Part shown: piece by piece, positions 3,521 to 64,000 of the stretch
Layout: each line of letters opens with the position of its first letter
Position numbering within the stretch: the first letter of the stretch is position 1
Source of the DNA: a virus
Direction: 5' to 3' (one strand)
Virus record (IMG/VR): IMGVR_UViG_3300014050_000012
Coordinates: 1-64,000 of that record
Length of the DNA: 64,000 bases
Notes under the pieces: model-generated
Seen by the model: only the letters and a program-made list of their open reading frames with translations
Told to the model about the DNA's origin: nothing
Databases searched by the model: none
Program-made: the position numbers and the translations under genes

Positions 3521-3549
3521 AATTTTATCTGATACTAACTTCTATATTT

Positions 3550-3878: not shown

Positions 3879-4040
3879 ATGAATAAAAATTACAATTTTG
3901 TACCGTCAGTATTACATACTACAGCACAAGAAATAGATGTTACAAATGATCTACAGGCCGAATCCACAAAAACAATAGCAGAACTACTGCATGAAAAAAA
4001 AGAAGAAGAAAAAGACCCAAAAGCCTTGTTTACCGAATAA
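3879..4040 (+). CDS. 53-aa hypothetical protein (MNKNYNFVPS...)
   Basis: manual translation; 55 bp downstream of the GGTGTA motif at 3824. Confidence 0.45.
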   Translation: MNKNYNFVPSVLHTTAQEIDVTNDLQAESTKTIAELLHEKKEEEKDPKALFTE

Positions 4041-41600: not shown

Positions 41601-44600
41601 GACAGATATTCTAAGAGAAGCTTGGAGAACTTTCATTTCTGGAGCATATTCTATACATAGAGATGAGGTTGCGCCAACAGTTGTTAGTATTTTAACTAAA
41701 ATTCCACCATTTTACTATAATGCTAATCATCCATATTATTCTGCATGGAATAGTTCTCAGGCCACTAGAGGAGTAAATGTTTGGAAAAATACTGGGTCTA
41801 CTGGTATATCGATGATGATTACGGGTGTTGAAAATATTCAAACCGATAAAAATCCTAACTATGGCTATAGATTTGTAAATACATCGCCATCCATATCATT
41901 CCAACCATCTATCACAGGATACGGCACATCTGGCAACATAGCAAATACTGGAAATAATAGTAAATTTAGATTTGCTCTAGATGAACTTAATAAATATTTA
42001 TGTGTTACTAGTATAAGTGGCATACATAGACCAACACTATCTTCTGGGCTTTTGGGTGCAAATGTTAATTTCCTTTCTGCATCAGATTGGACTATGAATA
42101 GTTCAAAAACAGAAAATACTAATTTATTAGTAAAAGATATAGATAATTTTACACTATTAGGCATAGATACTATTTCATTAAATAATACCCATAACGTAAT
42201 TTACAATTCTGGAAATAATATTTTTATAGCATCAGGATTACCACAAAATAGTGGATTAAAATTTAGATTTGGTTTGTGTGGCGGAGCATCAATACCATCA
42301 TTACCACCGGAAATTCAAGTTTTTGGTATTAATTCAAACTTTAACTATACAACAAAACATGTTTATGGTCTACCAACCGGAGATCAAGGATTATCTTCAT
42401 ATAGCAATCTCATTACTCCTTATAGTAATGTTTGGTATATTGATTTATATGTTAATGAGCTTAATAATATTCCTTCTTTTTCTTATAGTTTTAAAGATAT
42501 ACTTTACAATAAAGTAACCGGTATTATTTATAACAATAACCAAGCTGCGAATCATTATTATATTAATAATTTTACCACAACAACATATTCTAATGGAACT
42601 TTACCGTGGGTAGCTTCGTTTGATTTAGAAAATGTCAGTAGTGGTACTAACATAGGCATTAGTGGTGGTAGTGGAAACAATGTATTAATTCTAAGTAGTG
42701 GATTGGTATATAATCCTTATATTAGTAAGTGGCAAGGCTATATTTTTGGAAGTGGTACAGGTATAAATACCACATACAGCAATTTACCGGTTGGTATTAC
42801 TGGCGCTATAAATCTAGTACATACTGGTAATTTATTAGTAACAGGAGTGAATGCTGCGTATTCTCCAAGAATTAGTAATCTTTTAGATACAATTAAATTT
42901 AGAAATACAGGATTAGATCCCATAGTGCTCTACTTTAATTACCAAAAAGCTATTGGAGAAATAGATAGTCCATCTATTCAATTAAGTAATTATCCATCTG
43001 GCGCCACTATTAGCACAAATAAAATATCAGATATTAATTTAAATGCTTTTGCTCAAGCAACGAACAAGGAATTATGGAAAATAACTATAGGTAATATTGG
43101 AGCCACAGGATATACTCTTAATGGAGTGGCTTCGTTGTCTCCATATATAGATAATTTTAGTAGTAAAATTATTTCTTATGATTTATTTGGTATAAGTAAT
43201 GTATTATCTCCTGATCCTATTAATTTAACTAATACTAATTGGTTAATACAGTTAAGCGTTGATGGTGGAGGAGGACCAAATTATCCACCAAATATACAAC
43301 TGTTCAACACCCCTTCTGTGTATCAAACCGGAACATTAGCTTATGACTATACTAATAGTCAATGGGATATATCTTTAATAGGTAAGATTGATGATTTACA
43401 AAGATATAATATCGCTACAGGATTATACAATATTCAAATATATGGCCGAGATACTACAGGATATGCAACCAGCAGTACTAGCTTCACTTATTTATGCAAT
43501 CCAGAAATTCTAAATTTGAGAAAATGGTATGCTGTTAAAGATAAATCATATTTAATAAATTATGAAGTAAATAATTGTTGTAGAAATGAATACAATGTAA
43601 ATTCTAATACTTTTATAACTGATCCAAATTTACCAACATCAGAAACTCTACTATATAAAAAATATAATCCACTAATTAATACTTATGAATTGAGATATTT
43701 AGGAGATGCACCAGTAGATAAATGGGGAGCTAGATTAGAAATTTCTAATATTGATACAGAATATGCTTATGATGCTGTTAATGCTAATACTTTTACCATA
43801 GATGTAAAGGGATTAGACTCTGATGTGATTAGTGTTGTTGGACTATTAAAACTTAAAGAACTAGAAACGATTAATTCTGATTATCCGCCAATAGATATTA
43901 TTAATGTTAATCCAGAAGAGGATAAAACAAAAGCATTAACACAAGGAGATAACTGGTCTTTAAGCTTTAATGTTGTTGGTGGTTTATCTAATATTAATTT
44001 TCCTCCTACAATATTATTAAGCGGCTTACCATCTGTATGTAGTGGATATTTTCCTGATATTGAACCTAATGGTCCGCCATGTTTATCATCATTCTCTTTT
44101 AATAATAGTACATTACGTTGGACATTTAATTTTGCTGGACAAAGCAATTGTACAACTGGATTATATAATATTAGCATTAAAGCTTTTGACTCCACAGGAG
44201 AAGACACAGCATATACCAATCTATTCTTTGAACCATTACCGATACCTGGACCATCAGTTGTTTCTAAACTAACATCAAATTCTTTATTTCCTAACTGTTT
44301 GCCATTTTCTGGAGATATTCATGTTATTTCTCCAAGAAGAGGTTCTCCATGCCCATATATAACTGGTATTAAAGGATGGGAATTAATAGGTTCATTACCA
44401 AACGGTCTAGCTTTAGTATCAAACGAACTAGCTGGACTAAGTGCTCCTCATTACGTTGGTACTGGTATAGTTTCGATTACAGGAACAGCAACACAATTTG
44501 CTCCAGATAATGTTTATCCTGCGTTTATAATTAGAGCAACAGGATTTAATGATAAAACAGCTCAAACTGTTATTACTCTTAATAGTGCTGGAATAGTTCC

Positions 44601-46794
44601 TATCGATGAATATCCTCTTGGCTTTACTTTATATTTTCCACATTCTGGATATATGCTACCAACCTATAAACCGAATCCCAATGACACTCCACGAATAAGA
44701 TCAGCGAATCAAAGTGTTTATAAACCATATCCTGGTACTGGAGCGATGATTTGTCGTAGTTCATTATCTGATAATAATTGTCCAATATATTATACTGGAA
44801 TATATACTTTGCCAACATTTTCTATTACAGGATACGAAATAGCATCAATAAATAATCAAACAAACTTTTATGTGACAGGATCATATGGTTATATACCAGG
44901 ATATCTAAGTGTATGGAAAAATAATACGCTGTTAACTAACAATACAGATTTTACTGCTACTGGAAGTCCATTAATAACTTTGTCTGTTTCTGTTAATCAA
45001 AATGATGAAATTAGATGGAGTGGATTAGCATCTACCGGAACTGGATTAATTATAGATTTTGGCACAGAATCCATTTCTAGTTCGAATGTATACAGTGTAT
45101 TTGATTTTAATTTAACTAATAATAAGAATAATATTTATCAATTAATTAATATTAGTAATGAAGAATTTTTTGATGAAAAAACGCAACAATTCTACTATAA
45201 GTATGGTGGAGAATTATCTAATGTTTGCGATTCTAATCTACTCTTTTCTGGATTATCTCCAATATCTGGACATATACAACTTATGCCATTTGGCGTAGAG
45301 TCTATGAATATGCCAAACAGTTTTAATCTTAAAGGCGTTCCTGCATCAACTATGAACTGTAAAACATGCTTATTGGGTAATGGTGAGTTCGACACGTCTG
45401 GACCTAATCCTATACTTATTGGTAAAATGAGACCATCTATGATGTTAAATATTACAGGAAATATATATCCATTACAAGAATACGATTCAACAAATACTTG
45501 TATATCCAATAATTATTATATGGGTGGCGGCGTACAAAATCTGACCCTAATAAGCGGCGTATCTATAAGCTTACTACCAGGATTTTCTAGTGGAGAAATA
45601 GAGGAAATTTGCTATAAAAATTGTTATGAAAGTGGTGTTTCGTATCTTAGTGGCATAGTGGTACCAACTCCAGTAATAGAAATTACTGACCCGATACCTT
45701 ATGTTCGTAATTCACAAAATGTAGCATATGCCCTAAGATGTTCTTTTGGCGACACTAGTGTAAAAAGAGATAATATACAAAACTATAGAGGGGTAGATAT
45801 CAAATATTATATTAAACATTTAAATAGTGGATTATACTGGAATAATTCAGAAAATAAATTTGTATCTACAAAAACATTTTTTACACAATCTACAACAACG
45901 AATCTATCATTACCACAATCCATACCTTACTCAGCGCCAATTTTAACTAGTGGAGCGACATATGAACTATTTATGGAAAGAGCATCAGATGAATTTCCAA
46001 CTGTAAATATTAATTCTTATCCGTATATGAGTAATGCTATTTATTGGATACATCAGGCAAATGACGGAAATTCCTATCCTGCAACATCATCAACATATCC
46101 TGGATTTATGCCTATTCGATATAATAGTGGTATATTTATTGAGACCGGAGTTCCATTTAGAATACCTGCTCAAATTATAGGTGGTAGTGGATCGTATCAA
46201 CCAACAATAACCGGTTATTTAAGTCTTATTGATAGTAATACGGAAGTCTTGGATATTAATGGATTATCTCATAATCTAGCTGTTAGTACTAGTGGATCTA
46301 TTGTTAATGATGGATTATGGAATATTCAAATTACTGGTAATATTACTGGATTATTAAATTCTTATTTATCAAATTATGACTTACATATAGATATTACAGA
46401 AAATATTTTAGCTCCATTTGGTAAAACTACTAATAATATTATTCCAGTAACCATGCTTAGTCCTTTGTCATTTGCTATAACTAGCGATGGAGGATCCACC
46501 GTTTCTGCGACAATCGGATCAGTATGGAGCATATCTTTTACTGTTACAGGTGGAAATAGGCCACCAAGATATCATACTAATACTACTCAATGGGCAATTG
46601 ATAATGAGCCTATAGTAGAAATTGATGGCGAAATTTGTAATCATATATTTACTAAGTCTTATAATATGTCTAATAATACTTGGTCATATACTGTAACTTC
46701 TGCAAATATAGTTTTGGGCAATGAAATCCATACGATAAAATATATTGATAAAATGGGATATAGTATTTCTCAAGTTATTAACATACAAGTGTAA
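35668..46794 (+). CDS. giant (3708 aa) fibre/adhesin-like virion protein
   Basis: collagen-like GDKGDKGDKG, two DLLDGQH motifs, KV.VNSKGR fibre repeats, repeated Ig-like W.L.F.V.GG....PP.I units. Confidence 0.7.
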   Translation: MTIVNILEDSNNPNKYLIISSQDGTSESIVTTNVFVTSTSNNRLDLIEITKIPGDKGDKGDKGDIGPPGQDGLVFTVLPVSSGGTSNTSFITDKVIYYDGTQLVSSDLDINSIQTDIISNINAGNGLSKVQNGDEVTLNTNLGNGLTIVGDNQIGVDTNVVITKSTFDLSNTSFYQGILPIAYGGTNNTFFGLNSLIYYDGSKLATYPIPTGGIVHSGQQINIIAGSGLVGGGDITLPNGSVVIKLQNSDDITVFDDRIELSEIITTGTFTKVNVNSKGRVIGGSNITLNDVVTALGGMPWTSSTDGSGSGMDADLLDGQHGSFYRDAANISGTISTGVLPNIVSPATASKVQFNAKGLIIGTDFLTDTEITDALGYVPFDESGGTIFSNVEILGNLIADSATFDNNTITIGSPTNTNDIRGIRFRYNDVPAKHAVLAYYPAEGLFRISAESPGTSGIILTQEKADSKYVAVTGEQQISGIKTFLDNLNVYSRIIIRNPYPELSPLDIGSNSTLVQFLNADLLDGQHISYYRNAVNLTGILNTGVIIPHIQNRATVTYSNINNPDDGFVEYFPVFHRPSSGHPMVLRSSNVYHTGYNIHMKDSSLSVGFNILDDNISNSLVVGTNNSGSALATNSLAVGSQNIISGENSIALNYRSSAGTSNSIALGRYGETWLDDQISIGGFKNFNVGQDNIPRKDSHGQLSYIPLKYHGEAGGYVNILSFTLPENKTLEYEASLLFTKQINTGVASFNISPGIVKNYGYRDPSRGYAAYKKATMVTHHNVTEVYNNSQERIYNLAVELDNSYDANFKANDLEVTAKPYQYNTLDIQSYGTPIVITPKSDHSSKLKVTRGSSDLEDTYRDNYVIKIEPYNRSPYNTGAPITLGRNINHITECLYYRPSGSTTGIIKFSNHGFSPSCPFEISQYIGTGNIKILARKDSVFDFGLPTIQKTGTTINSFYKENNSNNEIIYRTYIDKNIFGTITGTVSFDIYKTSGVSSSDPLLPPVKLTGSYDWNPIFSGTHSVYETTLSFNFKATSLQLSNKNWSDLDNQKISLSIVKNNSANWTTYGLSNNITAYIHPHLGLLEFDLNATLPLSGPNIYLYTSEPVYPDFYGQPVYFYPGYYINDTTASINIEPYSYINYIYDNFKYIDSNTLGFEQKQLCYTTGTDMILISYPSILKHRTNLIADENEPLFLQIGDSIKINNTNDTITNIYIDNSGQKHYSVSNSYSANTGYVYLTSSISGVGFSSQRSFNSITGSYTFSRSSNSDYSSTLEGQTFAPLISLPIPGCVINEPPFYSPNCLYSVPTGYNFTFTFNSGLYPNGQDYLSSNVWSSFSSNALIVSSSIILSSGQNYVDLPPLLVPNGFLNSTGVNVAKYSSSIFDFRLNNLRMSDSTYKIRYSGYDPNNNTGINSTFNGLPAILISGDYNRFYFDTASTGNEIFAYKFLTILDSNNQHYISNTFRSQINNTNPTIDNYGNKLIRCSDWGLLSDSRWTGEVECNNFNLDFSVSLPLDLNNNFIENFTQNTSTTGTFIIASGTGLILPADTGTWTAYGLSGINNIYGDIVLYLKCRENYNYTNFSGVLSTGQLAQQSIYNRGFTVTEIYPEIDCNIYSANGTNTGIFSISLSNKQNYHTLTVNYPDTYLDYFRLLQSSNTIDIHNNLNLSFALLNGSNTTIVSGIFLPNTQCNKHIINKPFSKIYNVNSNTFNIAVVSGYIPSGLPSSGPIILTIPKIYDLVPSDQMPSYHTESRGVFDFSSSNAILSNGIYTIEKLDDYNIYLYDFPRSFVTGADSGESTIRYNNIGFNITDDKFSLWGKNFAGDTILHPWRDVPTFVSDSPGICESGKLCIRFSGIPNYFQEKDNFWVDIIPDIYPQSTGLVYATGYYVTGLSGINDSTVYIRCTGASSLGVVLGMNIYSTNNWTPNNSYISSLVSGQVIKLNTNITSASPGIYTNIHSNSFAYPYLFAFNKETSSQNAETDILREAWRTFISGAYSIHRDEVAPTVVSILTKIPPFYYNANHPYYSAWNSSQATRGVNVWKNTGSTGISMMITGVENIQTDKNPNYGYRFVNTSPSISFQPSITGYGTSGNIANTGNNSKFRFALDELNKYLCVTSISGIHRPTLSSGLLGANVNFLSASDWTMNSSKTENTNLLVKDIDNFTLLGIDTISLNNTHNVIYNSGNNIFIASGLPQNSGLKFRFGLCGGASIPSLPPEIQVFGINSNFNYTTKHVYGLPTGDQGLSSYSNLITPYSNVWYIDLYVNELNNIPSFSYSFKDILYNKVTGIIYNNNQAANHYYINNFTTTTYSNGTLPWVASFDLENVSSGTNIGISGGSGNNVLILSSGLVYNPYISKWQGYIFGSGTGINTTYSNLPVGITGAINLVHTGNLLVTGVNAAYSPRISNLLDTIKFRNTGLDPIVLYFNYQKAIGEIDSPSIQLSNYPSGATISTNKISDINLNAFAQATNKELWKITIGNIGATGYTLNGVASLSPYIDNFSSKIISYDLFGISNVLSPDPINLTNTNWLIQLSVDGGGGPNYPPNIQLFNTPSVYQTGTLAYDYTNSQWDISLIGKIDDLQRYNIATGLYNIQIYGRDTTGYATSSTSFTYLCNPEILNLRKWYAVKDKSYLINYEVNNCCRNEYNVNSNTFITDPNLPTSETLLYKKYNPLINTYELRYLGDAPVDKWGARLEISNIDTEYAYDAVNANTFTIDVKGLDSDVISVVGLLKLKELETINSDYPPIDIINVNPEEDKTKALTQGDNWSLSFNVVGGLSNINFPPTILLSGLPSVCSGYFPDIEPNGPPCLSSFSFNNSTLRWTFNFAGQSNCTTGLYNISIKAFDSTGEDTAYTNLFFEPLPIPGPSVVSKLTSNSLFPNCLPFSGDIHVISPRRGSPCPYITGIKGWELIGSLPNGLALVSNELAGLSAPHYVGTGIVSITGTATQFAPDNVYPAFIIRATGFNDKTAQTVITLNSAGIVPIDEYPLGFTLYFPHSGYMLPTYKPNPNDTPRIRSANQSVYKPYPGTGAMICRSSLSDNNCPIYYTGIYTLPTFSITGYEIASINNQTNFYVTGSYGYIPGYLSVWKNNTLLTNNTDFTATGSPLITLSVSVNQNDEIRWSGLASTGTGLIIDFGTESISSSNVYSVFDFNLTNNKNNIYQLINISNEEFFDEKTQQFYYKYGGELSNVCDSNLLFSGLSPISGHIQLMPFGVESMNMPNSFNLKGVPASTMNCKTCLLGNGEFDTSGPNPILIGKMRPSMMLNITGNIYPLQEYDSTNTCISNNYYMGGGVQNLTLISGVSISLLPGFSSGEIEEICYKNCYESGVSYLSGIVVPTPVIEITDPIPYVRNSQNVAYALRCSFGDTSVKRDNIQNYRGVDIKYYIKHLNSGLYWNNSENKFVSTKTFFTQSTTTNLSLPQSIPYSAPILTSGATYELFMERASDEFPTVNINSYPYMSNAIYWIHQANDGNSYPATSSTYPGFMPIRYNSGIFIETGVPFRIPAQIIGGSGSYQPTITGYLSLIDSNTEVLDINGLSHNLAVSTSGSIVNDGLWNIQITGNITGLLNSYLSNYDLHIDITENILAPFGKTTNNIIPVTMLSPLSFAITSDGGSTVSATIGSVWSISFTVTGGNRPPRYHTNTTQWAIDNEPIVEIDGEICNHIFTKSYNMSNNTWSYTVTSANIVLGNEIHTIKYIDKMGYSISQVINIQV

Positions 46795-54503: not shown

Positions 54504-57500
54504 ATGGCAGCATTTAATCTAACAGCACAATTAAATCTTGTTGGACCAACAAATATTAGGCAAATTGTTGGAGATATTAGAAAACAATTAGGAACCATTA
54601 AGGGAACTATTAATGTTGGTATTGATCCACAATCAGCTAAGGCTATAGCACAAGCACAATCTCAAGCTGCTCAATTAAGTTCCGGACTAAATAACGTAGC
54701 AAAATCTGGAAATACTGCCGCAGCTGGCATGAGAGATTTAAATGACGCTGCTGCAAAAAATCAGTTAGGATCTACAGCTAAAAATGCTGCATCGGCCGCT
54801 GATGCTGCTACAAATCTTGGTAAACAAAGTTCCAGAGCTGCTAAAGATGTTAAGGTGCTAGGTAATGAGTTAGCTGAGTTCGGTAGGCAGTCTGGTTTAG
54901 CTATTAGACGTTTTGCTGCTTTTAGTTTGGTATCAGGAGTTATGTATAAACTTAATAGTGCTATTAATCAAGCATTATCTCAATATATAGATTTTGATAG
55001 AGAATTAGTAAGAGTTTCACAAGTTACGGGAAAAAGTGTTCAAGAATTAGGTAGTTTGGTAGATGAAATATCTTCGTTGGCAGGCAGTACTGGCGTAGCA
55101 TCTAAAGAATTAATACAAGTATCATCAACCTTAGCACAAGCTGGTTTGAGTGCCAGAGAAGCAGAACAGGCCCTAAAAGCTTTGGCGCTTAGTGCTAATG
55201 CGCCGTCTTTTGATAATCTTAATGATACTGTAGAAGGTAGTATCGCTTTAATGAGACAGTTTGGTATTAGGGCAAATGAACTAGAATCAGCACTAGGTAG
55301 CATTAATGCTGTGGCCGCAGCATTTGCTGTTGAAGCTAGTGACTTAATTACCGCAATTAGTAGAACTGGTGGTGTGTTTGCTAGTGCTAGTAGAGGAGTT
55401 AGTGAAGGAACGCAAGCACTAAATGAATTTATTGCTGTATTCACAAGTGTTCGTGCTACAACTCGTGAAAGTGCCGAAACTATTGCTACTGGTTTAAGAA
55501 CTATTTTTACTCGTATTCAGAGAGAGTCCACAATTACTGCTCTAAGAGAGCTGGGTGTGGAACTTAGAGATGTGGAAGGAAAGTTCGTTGGTCCGTATGA
55601 GGCCGTTAGAAGACTAAGCGAAGGATTGGGACAACTAGATCCTAGATCTCAAGTATTTGCTAATATCATAGAAGAACTTGGTGGTTTTCGCCAAATTGGT
55701 AAGGTTATTCCGCTTATTCAACAATTCGCTACAGCAGAAGCGGCTTTGCAAGTAGCGCTCAAGGGTGGAGATTCACTAGCAGAAGCTAATAGACAAGCCC
55801 AACAATCTTTAGCTGTACAACTAGCTAAAACTAGAGAAGAGTTTGTGGCATTAGTAAGAGATTTTGCTAATAATTCTGTATTTAGAGGATTTTTAACAAC
55901 TACAATTAGTATAACAAAAAGCATATTAAGTTTAGCAAGAGCGGGAAAATCATTATTTCCCTTACTAACTATACTTGGTGGATTTAAAGCATTCTCTGCT
56001 GCTACTCAGTTTGCTGGTGGATTTTTAAAGGGTGTGCGACCAACAGGAGGAAGACCTGGTGGTTCTGCTAGTAGGGGTATAGGACAAAATCTTGGTGAGG
56101 TAATTAGTGGTTCCAAAAGCGAAAGACAATCAGCATCGTTAGACAAGATAGCTAAAGTTTTAGAAAGTAATGCTGGAAATTTTAATACCAGTGTATCATC
56201 TTTAATTCAACCTATCACACAACTATCTACAGCTATACAACAAAATATAGTTAGTCTTACAGATAATACTGGAGCTTTGACAGCAAATACAGCTGCTATT
56301 AATAATTTAACTGCTGCATTGGGTATGAAGGGAACAACATTAGCTGGTGGTGGCAAGGTTTTAGGCTTCGCCAAGGGAGGAACTGTTCCTGGCAGCGGAA
56401 AAGGAGACAAAGTTCCAGCATTATTAGAGCCTGGCGAAGTTGTAATGAGCAATAGAGCTGTTAATAAGTATGGAAGAGGTAATTTGGTTAATATGAATAA
56501 AAGATATTTTAAAGGAGGTATAGCCCAAGAAAAGCTTCAAACACTAGTTGAAAAAAGCAATAGTATTAAAAAATATATTAATGACACTATCAATCCAGAT
56601 GATGAAGCATTAACAAAGATAGTTCCATTTCGTGTTGATCTTGATGATAATGATTTCAGAGAAATGAAACAAATCATGATAGATACTGAAAGGCAAAGAC
56701 TTAGATATTTAGAAACATATCGTGATGATCCCAAAGCAAATAAACAAGTGCAACAGAGAGCCAGAAGCAGCAAAGACCCTAGAACAGTTGTTGGATTTCT
56801 TGGTCTGAAAAAACCAGAATCTCATTGGGGTCCAGGTAATGCTTTTCAACAGCATTTAATTAAAAGACTAAATATTTCACCAAGCGATATGCCCCCTAAT
56901 CTTGGCACACCACAAGAACAATTTAAAGATATTATAGACGAACATTATGCTGTTTTAGACTACCAAGACGGTGATGCTAAATTTTGGAAAGATCTAAGTT
57001 ATTTTGATACACAACCCGGAAAAATAGACATACTAAATAAACAATTTAAAAATGTAGTCAATAATAATCAACTAAAACCAAAACCAACCCCAAATTATGA
57101 ACTTTTTACTTTACCGGATACGCGAGTTTATTATCCTGAGATTGGCACAAAAGAACAATTTATGCGAGATTATGCGGCGTTTACCACAGCAGATTATGCA
57201 AAAACACATCTTCCAGCAGGAGCTTATTCTATTGGTGGAAAAATTCAAAAATTTGCTGGTGGAGGAGAAGCACTACAATCTAAATTATCAACCATAAGAA
57301 CTCTTTTAGGCGAATTTTATGGAAACGATGAACAACTGATATCAAAATCAATTTCTAATTCTATGATAATCGATGAGGCTCGTGCTGATAAAATTATTGC
57401 TAATTTAGAATCATCTAGATCACAGTTACCATTATTTAGAAAATTATTATCAGAAAAATCGTCTTCTGTTGGTGTTTTAAATGGATTTCCAATAGCCAGG

Positions 57501-60500
57501 TATGGTGCTATTGGTGGTATTGAGACTATGAGATTTGATGAACTAAAAGATGAAGAAACCATTAGAGAGTTTATAAAAAGAGGAAAATTAGCAACACAAG
57601 CTTCGCGTGGTCCAGTTGGTAAACGCATAGTTTACAGTGATCAAAAAGCAGCAAGACGAAGGTTTGCGGTTGGCGGAACAGTAGAGGGCATAGCTGCTAA
57701 AGAAAAAAAATCTATTGAAACTGTAATTTTAGAACAATTATCCAGTTTTGGAGATGCTAGCGGAGTTAAAAAAATACTAGGATTAGGAGCTGGAGAAAGA
57801 GAGATTAGCTCTATATTGAATGCTAGTAATATTAGAGCCGGTAAAAACATAGAAAAAGCTATTAAATTTATAAATAGGGCGCTAGCTAAGACAGGAAAAC
57901 AAGATGCTGCTAGAGAAGCAAAAGAAGCAGCCATGAGAAAAGTTGCAATTGCCGGATTATTTCCATTAGATTATAATAAAGATTTTTCAGACTGGAAGTT
58001 GGAAGATGGTAGAGAAATTTATGGTTATGTTAGAGGATTTCAATCTAGCTTTTTACCACAAATAGAAGCTATGCAAGAGGCTAATAGAGCTACTCGTCAA
58101 AAATTTGCTGAAGATATTCAAGATACGGCAGCATTAGGCGGATTAGGTAATAGAAATATTCAGGGGCCAATTCAACCATTAGCAATAGATTTTGATGAAA
58201 CATTGGCTCTTGGAACAAAAATGTTAAAAGTTAACAAAGAGGGTAAAGAAGAAGAAGATTTACCAGCCTATGCGGATAGAAAAAAAGTTATGGAAAGTCT
58301 AGCCCAAGCTAGACCAACCTCACTAGCTAAAAGATTGGCTAGTATAGAACAAAAAAATCCCGGATATGTTAGGATGTATAGTCGTATCTTAACGGCCCGT
58401 CCTCAAAGCACAGCAGATATTATAGCATCTACTCTTAATAGATTCGGATTACCGTATTTAGAACAAGATGTTACTGGAGTTAGTCAAGGATTAGGAACAA
58501 ATATAGCAAAAGCTAAAGCTGCTAATGTTGCAGCAGCGGAAAAATTGATCGATGATAGTGAAGAAAATATTAGAGCAACAATGGCTGCTGGTAAAAGCAC
58601 TTTTCGTTATGGCGAAGTTCCAGAACTCAAAGGACCAGCAGAAGAAAAATTTGGACAATCTAATATTGAAGGAGGCTTGTTAGAAGCGGCACTATCGCAA
58701 TTATTGGGTTATAATATAAATGTTGATGCTTTAGAAAGAAATAGGGCGATTGATTTTCCACAAGGACTAGGTAGAGGTGCTCAACTTTTTGGATTACCTC
58801 CGAATATTGAAACAGAAGTAAAAAGAACTTTGGACGGAGATAGTTTTTCAAAAGCCAGAGAAGAATTTAGTAGATACTTTACAGAAAATCCACAAGCCTA
58901 TGCTAAAGGAGGAGCAGCAACATTTGGCTCTGGATCATTTAAATTTCCCAAAAGAATAAGTAATGCTTATGTTCGGGAAATGGAAAAATTATTAGAACAA
59001 GAACAAATGGAGAAGGTTTTTTCAACGTATCCTGGTAATGAAAGAATGATTGTAGACGAAGAGGCTGTGAAAAAAGGTTACGAATCTCCTTTTAGTAGAG
59101 AACTATTCATAAATTCGTTTAAGGATAAAATAAATAGAAATACAGTTTTTGAAAGAATGGGGCAATTTGCGCGAGTTATAGGATTGCCACCCGCCGATCT
59201 TTTATCTGCAATACCAACTCAATTAGACTTTGGTGTTAATTATCCTGCTACAGCATTATTTAGCAAGGATCCTTCTGGCCCAGGAACCAGGGGACTACAA
59301 GGGGTGGATCTGACACCATATGGTTATACTGAACAAGATAAACAAGATTTATTCGGATATACTAAACTAATAGAAGAAAAAAAGAAACAAATATTAAAAA
59401 CAATTAAAACTCCTGTTACAACATATGAAGATGGTAGTTTTGGTTATGATGTGGCTCTAACAGAAAAATTAAGAGCAGAATTAGACGATTTACAAAAACA
59501 ACAAAGATCTCTTATTGATAAAAACAATGCGGCTATTAAAGCTGCAAAAGAATCCAGATTACAATCCGCAAATCAGAGTGGTCGAGGTAGCGTTGGTATA
59601 GCTACTAATCCGTTCAATACAAGTCAACGTCAAGACTATAGTATTTTATATCATGAATTAACTCATCAACTTTTTAATAGTCTTAGAACTAAAAATGCTC
59701 AATCATTTGAAGCATACAAGGCAAAAGTTTCTAGTTTATTCGATGGAAACAATGATGATGTGGCAGATGCTTTTGATACTCTGGTAGGAAATAGTGGATA
59801 TAATAGTGCTGATGTTGCTTATGGAAGAAGTTATAAACTTAATGGACTAAGTAGTTTAATGATAGGCTCCGCTAAAAAAGAGTCGTTTGAAAAATATGTT
59901 AATAGTGATCCAGAATATGTTCCAGAATTAAGAAAAACTTGGGCCGAAACAAATTCCACCACAAAGGCCAAAGCCTTTAAGCCACTTAATCCTAGAGTTA
60001 ATGATGTTTTATTAAGAGGTAAAATAAGTCAAGATGTTATAGATAAATATGAAGATAATGGTAAAGAAGAATTTTTAACCACACTAGTACAAAAATTACC
60101 ATTATTAGATGAAAATTTAAGTGGAATTTTGGATAGTACTCTGGATGAGTTGTTGGGAGGTGCTGAAATAAGTAGACAAAAATTTGCTATAGGTGGTAAA
60201 GTTAATTTATATCATGGTTCGACAACAGGAATAGATGATAATCAATTAAAGAAATTTAAAGAACAAGGAGCTTTATCTAATATAGCTCAAGGATATGGTC
60301 AGGGTGCTGGATTTTATGTCTGGACTGATAAATTAACCGCTATTAAACATGCGGATATGAGGATCAAAGCAGCAAAAGAAGGTATAAATAGTATTATGGG
60401 AGGAGATACTGGTGGAAAAGGAATGATCTTAGAATTCCAAGAATCTTTGGATCCATCCTTATGGGATCTTGATTATGAAATATCTAAAGGGCCAGTTATC

Positions 60501-63500
60501 AAATGGATAGCCGATAATTATGAAACTTTAAAAGATAAAGTTGCCGCATCTGAAGGAATAGCCGGCGTTACCGAAGTCGAAAAATATGATCCTAAAGTTG
60601 CCAAAGAAACTGGATTATTATATGGCGGCGCTAATATTATGACACAAACAGCTACTGGATCCAAAAAATATATAGATGCAGATTCAGCTGGAGATATACG
60701 AGAGGGCGAAATTCTTGGACAAATTATGAATAGGCTTCAGTCTAATGATCCTAGTCTTGTTCACTCATTTGAAAATAGTTTTTTCGGTCAACAATCTTTT
60801 CCAAAAGGATCGGCTCTAAAATATGTTGGATCGTCGCCATTAATACCAGTAAATATTGAAACATTCGCTTCTGGTGGTAAGGCTGGACTAGCAGATGTTA
60901 ATAAAGTTGGAGAACAACTATCTAGTGATTTTAAATTAATGAAAGGAAAAAATGCATGGAATCAATTAGAAAATAATTGTTTAAGTATTGCTAATAAGGT
61001 ATCCGATATGTTTGGCTATGTTGTAGAACCAGATAAAATTAGACAACAACTTGATACTTTCCAAAAATTAAGACTTGGTAAAACTAGCGCATTTGGATTA
61101 AAGCCGACAGAAGAAGTATTAAAGAAAATGCCATCATTGAATAGAATGCTTAATAATCCAACTTTAGCTGCTAGTACTGGTAATATAGTAGTTAGAGAAG
61201 GCGAAGAAATGATGAAACATGTATCATTTGAACATATGAATAAGGAATATAATTTTGGAGCAGCTGGTCCTGACTGGCCCATAGTGTTAAGAATACCTTT
61301 AAAAAAGAAAGATGCTGAGCAAAAACGCTATGGAGGTATGCTTAATAAATTCACTTCGGGAGGAACCATACCAGCACTAGTAAGTAACGGTGAGGCTTAT
61401 GTGCCTCCGAAGCTTGCTAAACGCATTGGATATGGAACACTAAGTCGTATGAATATGGCCGATAAAAATGGCATGGGGAGATTTAGTGATGGTGGAATTA
61501 GTGTATTTAAGGGTCCAGGTAGTGGAACTAGTGATAGTATACCAACAAGTTTACCAGTAGGAAGTTTTATAATAAGAGAAAAGGCTACTAAAGCTTTGGG
61601 ATTAAATAAGGGTGGGAGCGTAGGCATTCAAAAATTTCAAGACGGAGGCGCCCCAACAAATAGCGGAGACCTATATTTTACCACCTTGTCATCTGCTCAA
61701 ATACAAGATATAGTTGGTAAAGGATCATCTAGAACAGGAATAGATGTTGAATCTTTAGATTTATTAACAAGATATGCTACAGATGCAGGCATGAGCATAG
61801 AAGATTTTTCTAGCGGACTAATAAGAGCTAGAGATACTGCAATTGAATCTGCTTTAGCACAAGGACAAAGTTTTAAAGAAGCAGCATTAGCTGGACAACA
61901 AGCTGCTATTGCGATGGCAGATATTCCAAATATACAAGTTACAGGAGAAAATCCGTTAGACGTACTAAGATCCTTAACAGCATCGTCCACTAGAGTACAA
62001 GCAAATGTCGAACAACGTAGAGAAATATTAAGTGATCCTGAAATTATTGCTGCTATTAATGAAACTAATGATTTAATGAGTAAACTAACTCCTGCTGAAC
62101 AATTTTCTGTTCAAACAGGAACCGGACCAATGACCCCACAAATGGAAGAAGCAGCAGCATCTAGAAGAAGACAAAAAAATATTGTTGGATATAAAATAGA
62201 AGAAAGACAAACTCAAGCCAATCAACCAGGATTTGTACCACCAACTATACAACAACCAACTAATTTAATGGATATTGATGGTATTAATAATCAATTGAAG
62301 GAAGCTCAAAATAATGCTGCATTATATGCGTCATCTCTTAGGGATCAAGCTAATGCTATTCGCGCACAACAAGAAATTACCATAGATCCTGGCACCTTTG
62401 CTGGATTAGAAGCTAAAGCACAAGCTCTAGAAGAAAAAGCAGCAGCAACCGAAAAAGCTTATCAAGATTTGGCAGATAGTACACAAGAGAGTGTGTCTTG
62501 GTTTGATACAGAATATCAGGCGGCTATAGATAGTATGAGAATACGAGCAGAGTCTGTAGCTAAAGCAACACAAGATGTTGAAAAAGCTATGGTAACAAGA
62601 GCTAAAGAAATAGCCTCTGCAAATCCAGAATTAACAGCTGAAGAAATTGGACAACAGATTAGCACAGAAAAAACAGGAATAGTAGCAGAAGCTAGGGCTC
62701 AACAAACAGAAGCCGAAACAAAATTTGGTAGAGCACAAAGTAGGGTTGATACACTAGCGGGCAAAGCTGGTGCTGGAGCAGATATTTTAGCGGCTGATAA
62801 TAAAGCTAAGGCAGAAGCACAAGCTAAAGCAGATGCTGAAAAAGCCTTAGAGGCTCGTAAACAACAAGCGCGTGACCTTGGGGCGAAACGTGCGGCTATT
62901 GCTGTACCAGAAAAAAGAGAGTACGAAACAGAACAAGAATTTAACGATAGACGACAAAAGGCAACAGAAAGATTTACCAGACAATCAGCACGAGAATTGG
63001 GTCTTAGTAAAACTAGATTTGTTAGCTCAAGACAAAAAAAAGCTATAGAAGAAGAAGAAGCTAAAAAAACTAAAGTTGAGAGAGAAAAAACAGATGTTGC
63101 TATTCAAAGCACAGATACTAAAGCTACACTATTATTAGTACAAGCTATTAATGCAAATACTGTAGCACAAACTGGTTCGGCAGATTCTGTGAAATCATTA
63201 ACCGAACAAACAAATGGTCTCATTGCTACAAATGAACAACTAACTAATGCAAAAAATGCTGATATTGAACAGGCTAATGCTTCTCCTGAGAGAAGCGACC
63301 TATCTAAAGACACCCTAAGAGAAATTCCATTCTTAGACAAACTTGAAACATTAGGATCAGCAGTTGGTGACTTTGCTAATAATTTTGCAGCATCTACTAC
63401 TGATATTGATGGCAATATTGGTAAATTTGGTAGTGTTCTTCAGGGCGGTGCTTCTAGATTAGAATCTGGTATCAAAAAACTAGCTGATGGTATCAGAAAT

Positions 63501-64000
63501 GCTAATACGGCATTTGCAGATACTAAAATAGGAAAGTTTGCGGATTCATTTAGTCAATATGGCACAGCAATAGGTACTGGTGTAACAAGCGTACTACAAT
63601 ATATGGCCGACCAATCTAATGGTTATGAAACACTAACAGGATCAATACTACAAGCAGGATCAACAATAGCTAGTACAGCAACCATATTCGGTACTTTTGG
63701 TGCTCAATTCGGTCCGCTTGGTGGATTATTGGGAACACTTGCTGGCGTAGGGGCTGGAGCAGTACAAAGCATAAGAGATTATGTAGAAGCTCAGAATAAG
63801 GCCGCGGCAGAATTGTTAGAGACACAACGAACAGATGCTTTAGAAAAAGCATCATCAGATATTGCTGTATTTTTAGATAATGTCAATCCGTCTGCGAAAG
63901 ATCTTGAAAGCGCTCTTAGTAATTTGGCTCAGGTAGTAAATATTGAAAAAGAACAAATGTCTACTAATACAGAAGCTAGCAGATATAAATCAACTTATGG
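54504..64000 (+). CDS. tape-measure protein (TP901-type core) with embedded multi-enzyme region; 3'-truncated, at least 3165 codons
   Basis: manual translation from ATG 54504 (MAAFNLTAQLNL...); core FDRELVRVSQVTG...LAQAGLSA...ETIATGLRTIFTRI; no stop found in the parts translated, and its absence from the ORF track is consistent with it running off the window. Confidence 0.88.
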   Translation, partial: MAAFNLTAQLNLVGPTNIRQIVGDIRKQLGTIKGTINVGIDPQSAKAIAQAQSQAAQLSSGLNNVAKSGNTAAAGMRDLNDAAAKNQLGSTAKNAASAADAATNLGKQSSRAAKDVKVLGNELAEFGRQSGLAIRRFAAFSLVSGVMYKLNSAINQALSQYIDFDRELVRVSQVTGKSVQELGSLVDEISSLAGSTGVASKELIQVSSTLAQAGLSAREAEQALKALALSANAPSFDNLNDTVEGSIALMRQFGIRANELESALGSINAVAAAFAVEASDLITAISRTGGVFASASRGVSEGTQALNEFIAVFTSVRATTRESAETIATGLRTIFTRIQRESTITALRELGVELRDVEGKFVGPYEAVRRLSEGLGQLDPRSQVFANIIEELGGFRQIGKVIPLIQQFATAEAALQVALKGGDSLAEANRQAQQSLAVQLAKTREEFVALVRDFANNSVFRGFLTTTISITKSILSLARAGKSLFPLLTILGGFKAFSAATQFAGGFLKGVRPTGGRPGGSASRGIGQNLGEVISGSKSERQSASLDKIAKVLESNAGNFNTSVSSLIQPITQLSTAIQQNIVSLTDNTGALTANTAAINNLTAALGMKGTTLAGGGKVLGFAKGGTVPGSGKGDKVPALLEPGEVVMSNRAVNKYGRGNLVNMNKRYFKGGIAQEKLQTLVEKSNSIKKYINDTINPDDEALTKIVPFRVDLDDNDFREMKQIMIDTERQRLRYLETYRDDPKANKQVQQRARSSKDPRTVVGFLGLKKPESHWGPGNAFQQHLIKRLNISPSDMPPNLGTPQEQFKDIIDEHYAVLDYQDGDAKFWKDLSYFDTQPGKIDILNKQFKNVVNNNQLKPKPTPNYELFTLPDTRVYYPEIGTKEQFMRDYAAFTTADYAKTHLPAGAYSIGGKIQKFAGGGEALQSKLSTIRTLLGEFYGNDEQLISKSISNSMIIDEARADKIIANLESSRSQLPLFRKLLSEKSSSVGVLNGFPIARYGAIGGIETMRFDELKDEETIREFIKRGKLATQASRGPVGKRIVYSDQKAARRRFAVGGTVEGIAAKEKKSIETVILEQLSSFGDASGVKKILGLGAGEREISSILNASNIRAGKNIEKAIKFINRALAKTGKQDAAREAKEAAMRKVAIAGLFPLDYNKDFSDWKLEDGREIYGYVRGFQSSFLPQIEAMQEANRATRQKFAEDIQDTAALGGLGNRNIQGPIQPLAIDFDETLALGTKMLKVNKEGKEEEDLPAYADRKKVMESLAQARPTSLAKRLASIEQKNPGYVRMYSRILTARPQSTADIIASTLNRFGLPYLEQDVTGVSQGLGTNIAKAKAANVAAAEKLIDDSEENIRATMAAGKSTFRYGEVPELKGPAEEKFGQSNIEGGLLEAALSQLLGYNINVDALERNRAIDFPQGLGRGAQLFGLPPNIETEVKRTLDGDSFSKAREEFSRYFTENPQAYAKGGAATFGSGSFKFPKRISNAYVREMEKLLEQEQMEKVFSTYPGNERMIVDEEAVKKGYESPFSRELFINSFKDKINRNTVFERMGQFARVIGLPPADLLSAIPTQLDFGVNYPATALFSKDPSGPGTRGLQGVDLTPYGYTEQDKQDLFGYTKLIEEKKKQILKTIKTPVTTYEDGSFGYDVALTEKLRAELDDLQKQQRSLIDKNNAAIKAAKESRLQSANQSGRGSVGIATNPFNTSQRQDYSILYHELTHQLFNSLRTKNAQSFEAYKAKVSSLFDGNNDDVADAFDTLVGNSGYNSADVAYGRSYKLNGLSSLMIGSAKKESFEKYVNSDPEYVPELRKTWAETNSTTKAKAFKPLNPRVNDVLLRGKISQDVIDKYEDNGKEEFLTTLVQKLPLLDENLSGILDSTLDELLGGAEISRQKFAIGGKVNLYHGSTTGIDDNQLKKFKEQGALSNIAQGYGQGAGFYVWTDKLTAIKHADMRIKAAKEGINSIMGGDTGGKGMILEFQESLDPSLWDLDYEISKGPVIKWIADNYETLKDKVAASEGIAGVTEVEKYDPKVAKETGLLYGGANIMTQTATGSKKYIDADSAGDIREGEILGQIMNRLQSNDPSLVHSFENSFFGQQSFPKGSALKYVGSSPLIPVNIETFASGGKAGLADVNKVGEQLSSDFKLMKGKNAWNQLENNCLSIANKVSDMFGYVVEPDKIRQQLDTFQKLRLGKTSAFGLKPTEEVLKKMPSLNRMLNNPTLAASTGNIVVREGEEMMKHVSFEHMNKEYNFGAAGPDWPIVLRIPLKKKDAEQKRYGGMLNKFTSGGTIPALVSNGEAYVPPKLAKRIGYGTLSRMNMADKNGMGRFSDGGISVFKGPGSGTSDSIPTSLPVGSFIIREKATKALGLNKGGSVGIQKFQDGGAPTNSGDLYFTTLSSAQIQDIVGKGSSRTGIDVESLDLLTRYATDAGMSIEDFSSGLIRARDTAIESALAQGQSFKEAALAGQQAAIAMADIPNIQVTGENPLDVLRSLTASSTRVQANVEQRREILSDPEIIAAINETNDLMSKLTPAEQFSVQTGTGPMTPQMEEAAASRRRQKNIVGYKIEERQTQANQPGFVPPTIQQPTNLMDIDGINNQLKEAQNNAALYASSLRDQANAIRAQQEITIDPGTFAGLEAKAQALEEKAAATEKAYQDLADSTQESVSWFDTEYQAAIDSMRIRAESVAKATQDVEKAMVTRAKEIASANPELTAEEIGQQISTEKTGIVAEARAQQTEAETKFGRAQSRVDTLAGKAGAGADILAADNKAKAEAQAKADAEKALEARKQQARDLGAKRAAIAVPEKREYETEQEFNDRRQKATERFTRQSARELGLSKTRFVSSRQKKAIEEEEAKKTKVEREKTDVAIQSTDTKATLLLVQAINANTVAQTGSADSVKSLTEQTNGLIATNEQLTNAKNADIEQANASPERSDLSKDTLREIPFLDKLETLGSAVGDFANNFAASTTDIDGNIGKFGSVLQGGASRLESGIKKLADGIRNANTAFADTKIGKFADSFSQYGTAIGTGVTSVLQYMADQSNGYETLTGSILQAGSTIASTATIFGTFGAQFGPLGGLLGTLAGVGAGAVQSIRDYVEAQNKAAAELLETQRTDALEKASSDIAVFLDNVNPSAKDLESALSNLAQVVNIEKEQMSTNTEASRYKSTY

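What the first reader, a model, noticed from the sequence alone, without database searches (positions are those of the whole stretch)
57678..58898. Complete HAD phosphatase fused to a PD-(D/E)xK-like domain inside the TMP
Seen: all four HAD motifs, namely AIDFDETLA (58182), ILTARP (58386), a candidate Lys in AKAKAA, and LIDDSEENI (58545). This pattern resembles the PNKP/RNA-repair type. It is followed by GGLLEAAL...AIDFPQG...TEVKR, a restriction-endonuclease-like E...D...ExK arrangement. Inference: an end-healing or nucleotide phosphatase plus nuclease pair delivered with the DNA, possibly countering anticodon nucleases or nucleotide signalling.
Basis: partly seen in the sequence, partly recalled or inferred. 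Interest (0 to 1): 0.7.

Follow-up and report, generated by a model that had tools for sequence, protein, structure and literature searches.

The report
Phosphatase cassette inside giant tape measure
A 407-residue cassette inside the 4,706-residue tail tape-measure protein of an uncultured freshwater phage holds an apparently intact HAD-type phosphatase. The phosphatase is related to phage T5's dNMP phosphatase and T4's polynucleotide 3'-phosphatase and sits between two conserved flanking pieces, so the "fused nuclease" is unproven and the enzyme probably enters the host ready-made.

Summary
That frame starts with a tape-measure domain (PF10145) and runs 4,706 aa.

- **HAD phosphatase: real.** D171, D173, T175, [T/S]239, R241, K280 and D293 are kept in 72 of 72 relatives, down to about 30% identity. 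AlphaFold gives a Rossmannoid HAD fold (pLDDT above 90). T4 Pnkp 3'-phosphatase is the best solved match (Z 11.1-11.6). Relatives hit phrog_415, which holds T5 Dmp and T4 Pnkp. dN/dS is 0.09-0.19.
- **Not capless.** A flap and a small four-helix cap follow motif I. The motif I-to-II spacing fits T5 Dmp (67 aa) rather than T4 (49 aa). I therefore favour a nucleotide monophosphatase over an end-healing enzyme, weakly.
- **Nuclease claim: not established.** E336, D359 and [E/D]380-x-K382 are almost invariant. However, the predicted C piece has one strand only. It matches no nuclease family.
- **N and C pieces.** They adjoin directly in relatives that lack the HAD domain, so HAD looks nested in a two-piece domain of unknown fold.
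- **Distribution.** The family was found only in giant tape-measure proteins, as a cassette bounded by [F/Y]xxGG.

This scan had already found the HAD domain in other genomes.

The parts
54504..64000 (+). Tape-measure protein ORF. It is open at the window end and continues to base 68624 of the record, 4,706 aa in all.
   Evidence: PF10145 matches aa 188-394 at E 6e-24. PHROG tape-measure families match. Relatives are named 'TP901 family phage tail tape measure protein' by JGI.
57663..57677 (+). Upstream linker FAVGG (aa 1054-1058 of the ORF).
   Evidence: 33 of 51 N-H-C cassettes in relatives have [FYLMW]xxGG within 60 aa upstream.
57678..58148 (+). N piece of the cassette (module aa 1-157). 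It has seven helices, a three-stranded meander (87-95, 100-107, 113-120) and a long helix (123-153). Conserved residues are G93, P96, D98, Y99, K101, R119 and G120.
   Evidence: AlphaFold model, pLDDT 92-97. HMM hits in 58 of 88 relatives. Consensus. dN/dS about 0.2.
58149..58628 (+). HAD phosphatase domain (module aa 158-317).
   Evidence: AlphaFold pLDDT above 90 in two models. T4 Pnkp 3'-phosphatase 5uj0_B gives Z 11.6, rmsd 3.3 over 125 aa and Z 11.1. All top-50 matches are HAD proteins.
58188..58202 (+). HAD motif I, D171-F-D173-E-T175 (nucleophile Asp and general acid/base Asp).
   Evidence: D171, D173 and T175 are 72/72. They lie at the end of strand 168-170.
58206..58379 (+). Flap hairpin (183-185, 191-193) and a small four-helix C1-type cap (195-234), between motif I and motif II.
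   Evidence: Secondary structure of the model. hhalign places this stretch in register with the T5 Dmp cap.
58392..58400 (+). HAD motif II, T239-A240-R241.
   Evidence: T/S 72/72, A 72/72, R 72/72. The same 'TAR' occurs in T5 Dmp; T4 Pnkp has 'SGR'.
58515..58517 (+). HAD motif III, Lys K280.
   Evidence: 72/72. It lies in helix 276-283.
58551..58556 (+). HAD motif IV, D292-D293.
   Evidence: D292 is 71/72 (one E) and D293 is 72/72. They lie at the end of strand 289-292.
58629..58898 (+). C piece (module aa 318-407). It has helix 327-341 (E336), a loop with D359-F-P-x-G-L-G, helix 365-370, strand 378-384 (T-E380-V-K382-R-T) and helix 387-403.
   Evidence: Conservation. pLDDT 83-97 in the whole-cassette model but about 50 when folded with HAD alone. 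It occurs without HAD in at least 14 relatives.
58899..58913 (+). Downstream linker YAKGG (aa 1466-1470).
   Evidence: 51 of 51 N-H-C cassettes are followed by [FYLMW]xxGG within 30 aa.

Best explanation
The stretch is one swappable cargo cassette of a giant TP901-type tape-measure protein, bounded by [F/Y]xxGG linkers.

Its core is a catalytically competent, Mg2+-dependent HAD phosphomonoesterase. It belongs to the phage clade that holds T5 Dmp (dNMP 5'-phosphatase) and the T4 Pnkp 3'-phosphatase. It carries a small C1-type cap.

The HAD domain is nested between two conserved pieces, N and C. In my reading they fold together into a second domain with its own conserved charged site: D98, Y99, K101 and R119 from N; E336, D359, E/D380, K382 and R383 from C.

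The most likely mechanism is this. The tape-measure protein leaves the tail at infection. The cassette folds, or is cut free at the GG linkers. The HAD then removes phosphate from nucleotides, most likely (d)NMPs as T5 Dmp does. A less likely substrate is 3'-phosphate ends of nucleic acid. All of this happens before any phage gene is expressed.

What is shown: the motifs, their conservation, the fold, the clade and purifying selection. What is inferred: activity, substrate, delivery, cleavage, and the packing and role of the N and C pieces.

My rough odds:
- Active phosphatase: 0.9.
- Substrate is a free nucleotide: about 0.45.
- Substrate is a polynucleotide 3'-phosphate end: about 0.25.
- Some other phospho-ester: about 0.3.
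For: **Open frame and tape-measure identity:**

**Homologues:** 88 were found, nearly all of 2,000-7,900 aa.

**Catalytic residues:** invariant in 72/72.

**Structure:**
- AlphaFold gives the whole cassette a mean pLDDT of 94.7 and pTM of 0.78, with HAD strand order, flap and cap.
- The HAD part also scores above 90 in a separate model.
- T4 Pnkp phosphatase gives Z 11.6 and 11.1, Pnkp1 Z 10.3-10.4 and AphA Z 9.2-9.7. Every one of the top 50 rows is a HAD protein.
- Foldseek on PDB and on BFVD returns HAD phosphatases and phage 'PNKP phosphatase domain' proteins.

**Sequence link to known phage enzymes:**
- 9 of 24 relatives hit phrog_415, best E 2.9e-5.
- phrog_415 matches T5 Dmp at E 8e-59 and the T4 Pnkp HAD at E 9e-26.
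- hhalign of the family against T5 Dmp aligns 144 columns with all four motifs in register, P 0.004. It gives nothing for T4 Pnkp.
- The motif I-to-II distance is 67 aa in T5 Dmp and in most relatives, against 49 aa in T4.

**Selection:** dN/dS is 0.09-0.19 in HAD and 0.07-0.23 in the N and C pieces wherever the compared pair has enough substitutions to judge. The N-piece values against L001 (1.09) and L002 (0) rest on almost no synonymous change (dS about 0.01) and say nothing.

**Cassette behaviour:**
- Architectures are N-H-C 50, H-C 16, C alone 11, N-C 2, C-N-C 1 and C-H 1.
- 51 of 51 cassettes are followed by a GG linker.
Against: - The window's own sequence hits no Pfam, PHROG, NCBIfam or PDB profile. 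The links to T5 Dmp and T4 Pnkp are through relatives, or are weak (P 0.004), or are structural with margins of only 1-2 Z units over acid phosphatases.
- No substrate can be read from the sequence.
- The better confidence of the C piece in the whole-cassette model is confounded by a deeper alignment (58 rows against 24). Packing of N with C is therefore not proven.
- 16 relatives show H-C without a detectable N piece, and one shows C before H.
- Ejection and folding of a 407-aa globular cassette from a tail lumen are assumed, not shown.
Confidence: 0.8

Rival explanations
1. The C piece, alone or together with N, is a PD-(D/E)xK-type metal-dependent nuclease. The HAD works with it as an injected pair. 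Either the nuclease degrades host nucleic acid and the HAD clears the nucleotide products, as T5 A1 and Dmp do, or the HAD heals 3'-phosphate ends.
For: - E336 (79/86), D359 (86/86), [E/D]380 (86/86) and K382 (85/86) form a conserved E...D...(D/E)xK pattern. 'TEVKRT' resembles the h-E-V-K-[ST] strand of Hjc/YraN-like enzymes; that resemblance is from my own knowledge.
- The N piece supplies a beta-beta-beta-alpha unit and the C piece a strand plus a helix.
- The C piece is under strong purifying selection, dN/dS 0.07-0.21.
- T5 encodes Dmp next to the host-DNA-degradation gene A1 in its first-step-transfer DNA.
Against: - There is no hit to any nuclease family by Pfam, NCBIfam, PHROG, PDB sequence profile, the Atlas or fold search.
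- In the confident model D359 sits in a loop, not at the start of a strand. The stretch between D359 and E380 holds a helix, not a hairpin.
- The C piece has a single strand.
- No chain aligned to the N or C parts at Z 7.4 or more.
Confidence: 0.2
2. The HAD is a polynucleotide 3'-phosphatase like T4 Pnkp. It repairs tRNA or other RNA cut by host anticodon nucleases, or trims 3'-phosphate ends of the entering DNA.
For: - T4 Pnkp phosphatase and Pnkp1 are the top structural matches in two searches.
- Phage 'polynucleotide kinase/phosphatase' proteins lead the named BFVD matches, ranks 4-6.
- About 20 related tape-measure proteins also carry a P-loop module, GVAGSGKT.
Against: - This protein has no Walker A motif in 4,706 aa and no ligase.
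- The HAD has a cap of about 45 residues. From my own knowledge of the HAD classification of Burroughs et al. 2006, caps usually go with small substrates.
- hhalign aligns T5 Dmp but not T4 Pnkp.
- The P-loop modules of relatives sit with a HIGH-type nucleotidyltransferase signal. That points to nucleotide metabolism rather than a 5'-kinase for end healing.
Confidence: 0.25
3. The HAD acts outside the cytoplasm, on a phosphorylated envelope component or periplasmic nucleotide, while the tape-measure protein crosses the envelope. This would resemble the peptidoglycan hydrolase motifs of other tape-measure proteins.
For: - Periplasmic class B (AphA) and outer-membrane class C acid phosphatases are the longest structural alignments (146-170 aa, Z 8.6-9.7).
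- There are faint hits to the lipin-like LNS2 family (E 0.078) and to the Nir2 LNS2 domain (Z 8.2).
Against: - These matches rank below the Pnkp matches and reflect the shared HAD fold.
- The sequence links go to phage cytoplasmic enzymes.
- Other cassettes of the same protein were read in earlier notes as cytoplasm-type effectors, including an ART-like one. I did not test that.
Confidence: 0.12
4. The cassette is an inactive structural spacer, a pseudo-enzyme that only adds length or bulk to the tape measure.
For: Its position inside a ruler protein. No family model recognises the window's own sequence.
Against: - All catalytic residues are invariant in 72/72 relatives at down to 30% identity.
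- dN/dS is 0.09-0.19.
- The module comes and goes as a unit between relatives, which is not expected of a ruler segment.
Confidence: 0.05

Closest known systems
Phage T5 Dmp, deoxynucleoside-5'-monophosphatase (member of phrog_415)
   Same: - HAD phosphatase with DxDxT, 'TAR', K and 'IDD' motifs.
- The motif I-to-II spacing is the same, 67 aa.
- The cap segment has a similar D-x-x-G-x-x-D-[IL]-x-x-Y pattern.
- Relatives of the cassette hit phrog_415, which T5 Dmp matches at E 8e-59.
- It acts at the very start of infection, as a product of the first-step-transfer DNA.
   Different: - T5 Dmp is a free 244-aa protein made after DNA entry. It is not part of a virion protein.
- It has no N or C flanking pieces.
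- Similarity to the window's own sequence is weak (hhalign P 0.004; no direct phrog_415 hit).
- The substrate of the cassette is untested.
Phage T4 Pnkp 3'-phosphatase domain (PDB 5uj0, 1ltq) and Pnkp1 of the Pnkp1/Rnl/Hen1 repair complex (4xru, 4xrp)
   Same: - Best solved structural matches: Z 11.1-11.6, rmsd 3.2-3.3 over 125-126 aa; Pnkp1 Z 10.3-10.4.
- Same catalytic motifs, including the Arg of motif II.
- The T4 Pnkp HAD is also in phrog_415.
   Different: - Those enzymes are fused to a P-loop 5'-kinase. This tape-measure protein has no Walker A motif.
- T4's insertion after motif I is shorter, 49 aa against 67-71 aa.
- hhalign finds no alignment.
- The margin over acid phosphatases is only 1-2 Z units.
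Class B acid phosphatase AphA (PDB 2b82, 1z5g)
   Same: HAD fold with a small helical cap and a T-x-R motif II. It gives the longest alignments, 146-170 aa at Z 9.2-9.7. It is a nucleotidase.
   Different: It is a periplasmic homotetramer of bacteria. There is no sequence-level link, and it ranks lower than Pnkp.
Enzyme-bearing tape-measure proteins (TM4 peptidoglycan hydrolase motif) and phage/plasmid polyvalent proteins (Iyer et al. 2017, PMC5512222)
   Same: Enzymatic cargo built into a protein that leaves the virion at infection. Many swappable domains sit in one polypeptide.
   Different: A text search of the polyvalent-protein paper finds neither 'phosphatase' nor 'tape measure'. Here the carrier is a 4,706-aa tape measure with GG-bounded cassettes, and the HAD is nested in another domain.
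PD-(D/E)xK nucleases (Hjc/YraN-like minimal forms)
   Same: A conserved E...D...(D/E)xK pattern, with 'TEVKRT' on a strand.
   Different: No alpha-beta-beta-beta-alpha-beta core is predicted inside the C piece, and D359 lies in a loop. No profile or fold match was found. I do not file it as a member.

Membership tests
HAD superfamily, phosphatase type | Motif I DxDx[TV] at the end of strand 1, with the second Asp present | tested here: met
   D171-F-D173-E-T175. D, D and T are 72/72. The motif follows strand 168-170.
HAD superfamily, phosphatase type | Motif II Ser/Thr at the end of strand 2 | tested here: met
   T239 (T 64, S 8 of 72) at the end of strand 235-239.
HAD superfamily, phosphatase type | Motif III Lys, and motif IV acidic pair (DD) | tested here: met
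   K280 is 72/72. D292 is 71/72 and D293 is 72/72.
HAD superfamily, phosphatase type | Rossmannoid fold with a flap after strand 1 | tested here: met
   AlphaFold pLDDT above 90. The hairpin is at 183-185/191-193. All top-50 structural matches are HAD proteins, best Z 11.6.
HAD superfamily, phosphatase type | Mg2+-dependent phosphoryl transfer through an aspartyl-phosphate intermediate | not testable with these tools
   Needs an enzyme assay.
T4 Pnkp-type polynucleotide 3'-phosphatase | Closest fold to the Pnkp phosphatase domain | tested here: met
   5uj0_B gives Z 11.6 and 11.1. The margin over AphA is only 1-2 Z units.
T4 Pnkp-type polynucleotide 3'-phosphatase | Partner 5'-kinase (P-loop) in the same protein | tested here: not met
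   No Walker A motif in the 4,706-aa protein. About 20 relatives have a P-loop module elsewhere in the protein.
T4 Pnkp-type polynucleotide 3'-phosphatase | Activity on 3'-phosphate ends of nucleic acid | not testable with these tools
   Needs an assay.
phrog_415 (T5 Dmp / T4 Pnkp HAD clade) | Significant match to the family profile | tested here: inconclusive
   The window's own sequence has no hit at E <= 1. 9 of 24 relatives hit, best E 2.9e-5 for L025, which is 65% identical to the window. hhalign against T5 Dmp gives P 0.004.
PD-(D/E)xK nuclease | Conserved acidic residues and Lys in the order E...D...(D/E)xK | tested here: met
   E336 is 79/86, D359 is 86/86, [E/D]380 is 86/86 and K382 is 85/86.
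PD-(D/E)xK nuclease | alpha-beta-beta-beta-alpha-beta core, with D at the start of strand 2 and (D/E)xK on strand 3 | tested here: inconclusive
   The C piece alone has one strand, and D359 is in a loop. The N piece adds a three-stranded meander and a helix, so a composite core is not excluded. No nuclease appears in the fold searches, which the HAD domain dominates.
PD-(D/E)xK nuclease | Match to a nuclease family profile | tested here: inconclusive
   No hit in Pfam, PHROGs, NCBIfam or the PDB profile search. Minimal PD-(D/E)xK families are often beyond such searches.
Phage tail tape-measure protein (TP901 type) | PhageMin_Tail domain at the N-terminus of one long helical protein in the tail gene block | tested here: met
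   PF10145 at E 6e-24. phrog_1533 and phrog_28 match. Tail-fibre genes lie upstream. Relatives are so named by JGI.

The most novel reading that the evidence does not exclude
The N and C pieces together form a new, two-piece enzyme or nucleic-acid-binding domain that occurs only in giant tape-measure proteins. It would have its own conserved acidic/basic site. A T5-Dmp-like phosphatase has been inserted into it. The cassette would then be a ready-made injected unit that cuts host nucleic acid and dephosphorylates the products, a protein-level version of the T5 pre-early A1/Dmp programme.
Probability: 0.2. Interest if true: 0.75.

Novelty: new variant of a known kind. Interest (0 to 1): 0.55.

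Why it matters
Phage counter-measures and host take-over functions are usually thought of as early genes. Here a metabolic enzyme of the T5 Dmp / T4 Pnkp clade is built into the protein that leaves the tail first, so it could act before any transcription.

The family is confined to 2,000-7,900-aa tape-measure proteins of uncultured, mostly freshwater phages, and it moves as a GG-bounded cassette. This gives a testable system for three questions:
- How globular enzymes travel through a tail.
- Whether they are cut free at the linkers.
- What an injected phosphatase is for.

The conserved N/C frame is a further domain of unknown function with a clear set of candidate active-site residues.

Tried and rejected
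**Single-sequence searches with the cassette found nothing**
- Pfam, PHROGs, PDB phmmer and tblastn against 50,697 phage records.
- A PDB profile search with the HAD+C alignment gave only spurious LexA rows.
- With the C alignment it gave only UvrB rows, caused by a UVR domain in the tail of one added relative.
- NCBIfam on 24 members gave nothing meaningful. Pfam on 24 members gave only a faint LNS2 hit.
- The ESM Atlas gave no usable hit for the C piece, or for an N-C unit of a relative without HAD.

**Tests of the T5 Dmp lead**
- PF26880, named in earlier notes, is not in the Pfam copy at hand.
- phrog_415 does not ring on the window's own record.
- A profile of the family does not ring on the T4 or T5 genomes.

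I fetched diverse loci through the search for related loci instead. The scan with P0080 found nothing.
- Fold searches with the whole cassette list only HAD proteins, so they say little about N and C.

**Ideas considered and dropped**
- A ligase-type KxDG motif in 'KLEDGR': K107 and D110 are not conserved.
- A helix-hairpin-helix reading of 'ILGLGAGEREISSIL': the consensus does not keep GhG.
- A second C-like copy elsewhere in this protein: none was found, even without filters.
Full report
**What is there**

The window carries the structural genes of a tailed phage with about 32% G+C. These include a large terminase, tail-fibre genes and a 3,708-aa fibre-like ORF. The frame 54504..63998+ is open to the window's end. 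On the 88,908-base virus record it continues to base 68624, giving 4,706 aa. CheckV rates the record 59% complete.

The N-terminus of this ORF matches PF10145 PhageMin_Tail (E 6e-24) and PHROG tape-measure families. Public sources name its relatives 'TP901 family phage tail tape measure protein'.

Between residues 620 and 2,380 the protein is cut into blocks by recurring [F/Y]xxGG linkers. The finding's coordinates, 57678-58898, are exactly one block of 407 residues, between FAVGG and YAKGG.

**Check of the observation**

A full phmmer scan of 1.84 billion representative proteins found 88 relatives. 42 had E below 1e-30. Almost all are 2,000-7,900 aa long, and the few short ones look like contig-end fragments.

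In an alignment of 72 HAD segments, down to about 30% identity, conservation is as follows:
- D171, D173, T175, A240, R241, K280 and D293 are invariant.
- Residue 239 is T or S in all.
- D292 is D in 71 and E in one.

**Fold**

I gathered diverse loci from viral and metagenome contigs and built alignments.

- AlphaFold on HAD plus the C piece gave pLDDT above 90 for residues 10-160 of that model, but about 50 for the C piece.
- AlphaFold on the whole cassette with 58 rows gave a mean pLDDT of 94.7 and pTM of 0.78.

The HAD part shows, in order:
- strand 1 ending in motif I;
- a flap hairpin;
- four short helices forming a small C1-type cap;
- strand 2 ending in T239;
- a helix carrying K280;
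- a strand ending in D292-D293;
- a last strand.

Structure searches agree:
- Foldseek against PDB returned only HAD phosphatases.
- VIA-align ranked the T4 Pnkp 3'-phosphatase first (5uj0_B, Z 11.6, rmsd 3.3, 125 aa). Pnkp1 followed at Z 10.4 and AphA at Z 9.7.
- An independent search of 48,161 representative chains gave the same order: Z 11.1, 10.3 and 9.2.
- In BFVD the first two matches are large uncharacterised proteins of uncultured viruses. The named matches that follow (ranks 4-6 and many below) are phage proteins labelled polynucleotide kinase or PNKP phosphatase domain.

The second refutation test, no HAD fold, is also passed.

**Which HAD clade**

The window's own sequence reaches no family threshold. 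Its relatives do:
- 9 of 24 hit phrog_415. The best is E 2.9e-5, for a sequence 65% identical to the window. A hit at E 0.011 covers the whole domain.
- Two relatives hit a 5'-3' deoxyribonucleotidase PHROG at about 1e-3.

I checked what phrog_415 holds. It matches T5 Dmp over its full length (E 8e-59) and the HAD half of T4 Pnkp (E 9e-26).

hhalign of the family alignment against T5 Dmp aligns 144 columns with all four motifs in register, including the cap (P 0.004). It finds nothing for T4 Pnkp.

The distance from motif I to motif II is 67 residues in T5 Dmp and in most relatives. It is 71 in the window, which has a four-residue insertion, and 49 in T4. Motif II reads TAR in T5 Dmp and in this family, but SGR in T4.

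Together with the cap, this tilts me towards a mononucleotide phosphatase rather than an end-healing enzyme. The evidence is thin, and the structural ranking favours T4 only because no T5 Dmp structure is among the solved chains.

This tape-measure protein has no Walker A motif anywhere, so there is no Pnkp-like kinase partner.

**The 'nuclease' part**

The C piece (module residues 318-407) keeps the following:

| Residue | Conservation |
|---|---|
| G332 | 85 of 87 rows |
| E336 | 79/86 (Q in the rest) |
| D359 | 86/86 |
| G363 | 85 of 87 rows |
| T379 | 84 of 87 rows |
| [E/D]380 | 86/86 |
| K382 | 85/86 |
| R383 | 80 of 87 rows |

So the E...D...(D/E)xK pattern is real and under selection (dN/dS 0.07-0.21).

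The confident model, however, gives this piece a helix with E336, a long loop with D359, a short helix, one strand with T-E-V-K-R-T and a final helix. That is not an autonomous alpha-beta-beta-beta-alpha-beta core.

No nuclease family appears in any profile or fold search. The fold searches are dominated by the HAD domain and so test the flanks poorly. All I can say is that no chain aligned to them at Z 7.4 or more.

**The N/C frame**

HMMs of the three parts gave these architectures in the 88 relatives:

| Architecture | Number of relatives |
|---|---|
| N-HAD-C | 50 |
| N-HAD-C with an extra copy of one part | 3 |
| HAD-C | 16 |
| C alone | 11 |
| N-C, pieces directly adjoining | 2 |
| C-N-C | 1 |
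| C-HAD | 1 |

In the N-C forms the two pieces are 12-16 residues apart. In the N-HAD-C forms the HAD begins a few residues (mostly 2-10, up to about 15) after N ends, and ends about 5-12 residues before C begins.

The N piece has a helical part, a three-stranded meander with conserved G93, P96, D98, Y99, K101, R119 and G120, and a long helix.

I read this as a two-piece domain into which HAD is inserted. The rise in confidence of the C piece when N is present fits that reading, but it is confounded by the deeper alignment. The reading is an inference.

All three parts show dN/dS of about 0.1-0.2 against relatives 92-97% identical, wherever there are enough substitutions to judge. All 51 complete cassettes in relatives are followed by a [FYLMW]xxGG linker within 30 residues.

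**How it probably works**

From published work on tape-measure proteins, these proteins leave the tail at infection and enter the envelope (reviewed in PMC13277306). The cassette would then fold, or be cut free at the linkers. The HAD would hydrolyse a phosphomonoester before any phage gene is read.

T5 makes Dmp from its first-step-transfer DNA, next to the host-DNA-degradation gene A1. An injected Dmp-like enzyme would move that step one stage earlier.

The rivals are end healing, an envelope or periplasmic target, and a true nuclease-phosphatase pair. They are scored in their own sections.

**Comparison and novelty**

The HAD is a new member of a known phage clade, in an unusual carrier and nested in an unknown domain. 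A text search of the survey of polyvalent proteins finds neither 'phosphatase' nor 'tape measure'. My literature searches found no description of a HAD in a tape measure.

This scan had already noted the same HAD domain in tape-measure proteins of several other genomes. Two earlier follow-ups named T5 Dmp and T4 Pnkp as closest. I reproduced that lead in part. What I add:
- the cap;
- the spacing argument;
- the N/C frame;
- the negative result on the nuclease reading.

**Limits**

Noticed in passing
Relatives P0005, P0008, P0011, P0012, P0014, P0017, P0023, P0039, P0045, P0047, P0049, P0051, P0054, P0065, P0072, P0073, P0078, P0079, P0085 (positions): About 20 related giant tape-measure proteins carry a P-loop module ('YGVAGSGKTTLARG'). 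Several also give a weak hit to the HIGH-type cytidyltransferase-associated family PF16581 (P0040, E 8.8e-5). This suggests a NadR-like kinase plus nucleotidyltransferase cassette. The window's own protein lacks it.
   Followed up: partly
P0083 residues about 100-150: A UvrB-C-terminal-like UVR domain ('DLDFERAAELRDEIERLR') follows a GG linker after the C piece in one relative (E 4e-4 to UvrB chains). It is another cargo type.
   Followed up: no
window 56367-56510, 61350-61480, 61482-61610: A short motif, 'GG-x-VP(A/S)-L-x-PGE-x-V' followed by 'G-x-G-x-L', recurs three times next to GG linkers. It is strongly conserved in relatives (consensus DTVPAMLTPGEFVINKKA).
   Followed up: no
window 59640-59660: A HExxH motif ('YHELTHQ') in the next cassette (aa 1471-1894) suggests a zincin-type metallopeptidase. 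I did not test this.
   Followed up: no
window 7719-10835: The large terminase ORF is 1,038 aa long. Terminase hits are split around a stretch that matches an endonuclease PHROG (aa 295-467). This may be an intein or a homing-endonuclease insertion.
   Followed up: no
window 35668-46794: A second giant ORF of 3,708 aa has only short tail-fibre PHROG hits near its N-terminus.
   Followed up: no
window 1-4000: G+C is 41-46% in the first 4 kb and about 30-33% after that. This may be a different genome module or acquired DNA.
   Followed up: no
P0008 (7,122 aa): One relative carries two HAD domains: a lone one at 2293-2430 and a full N-HAD-C cassette at 3355-3726.
   Followed up: no
P0096, P0098, P0099, P0019: Precomputed Pfam lists for some relatives add PF03496 (ADP-ribosyltransferase exotoxin family) and PF28597 to PF10145. 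This is in line with an ART-type cassette in this protein family.
   Followed up: no
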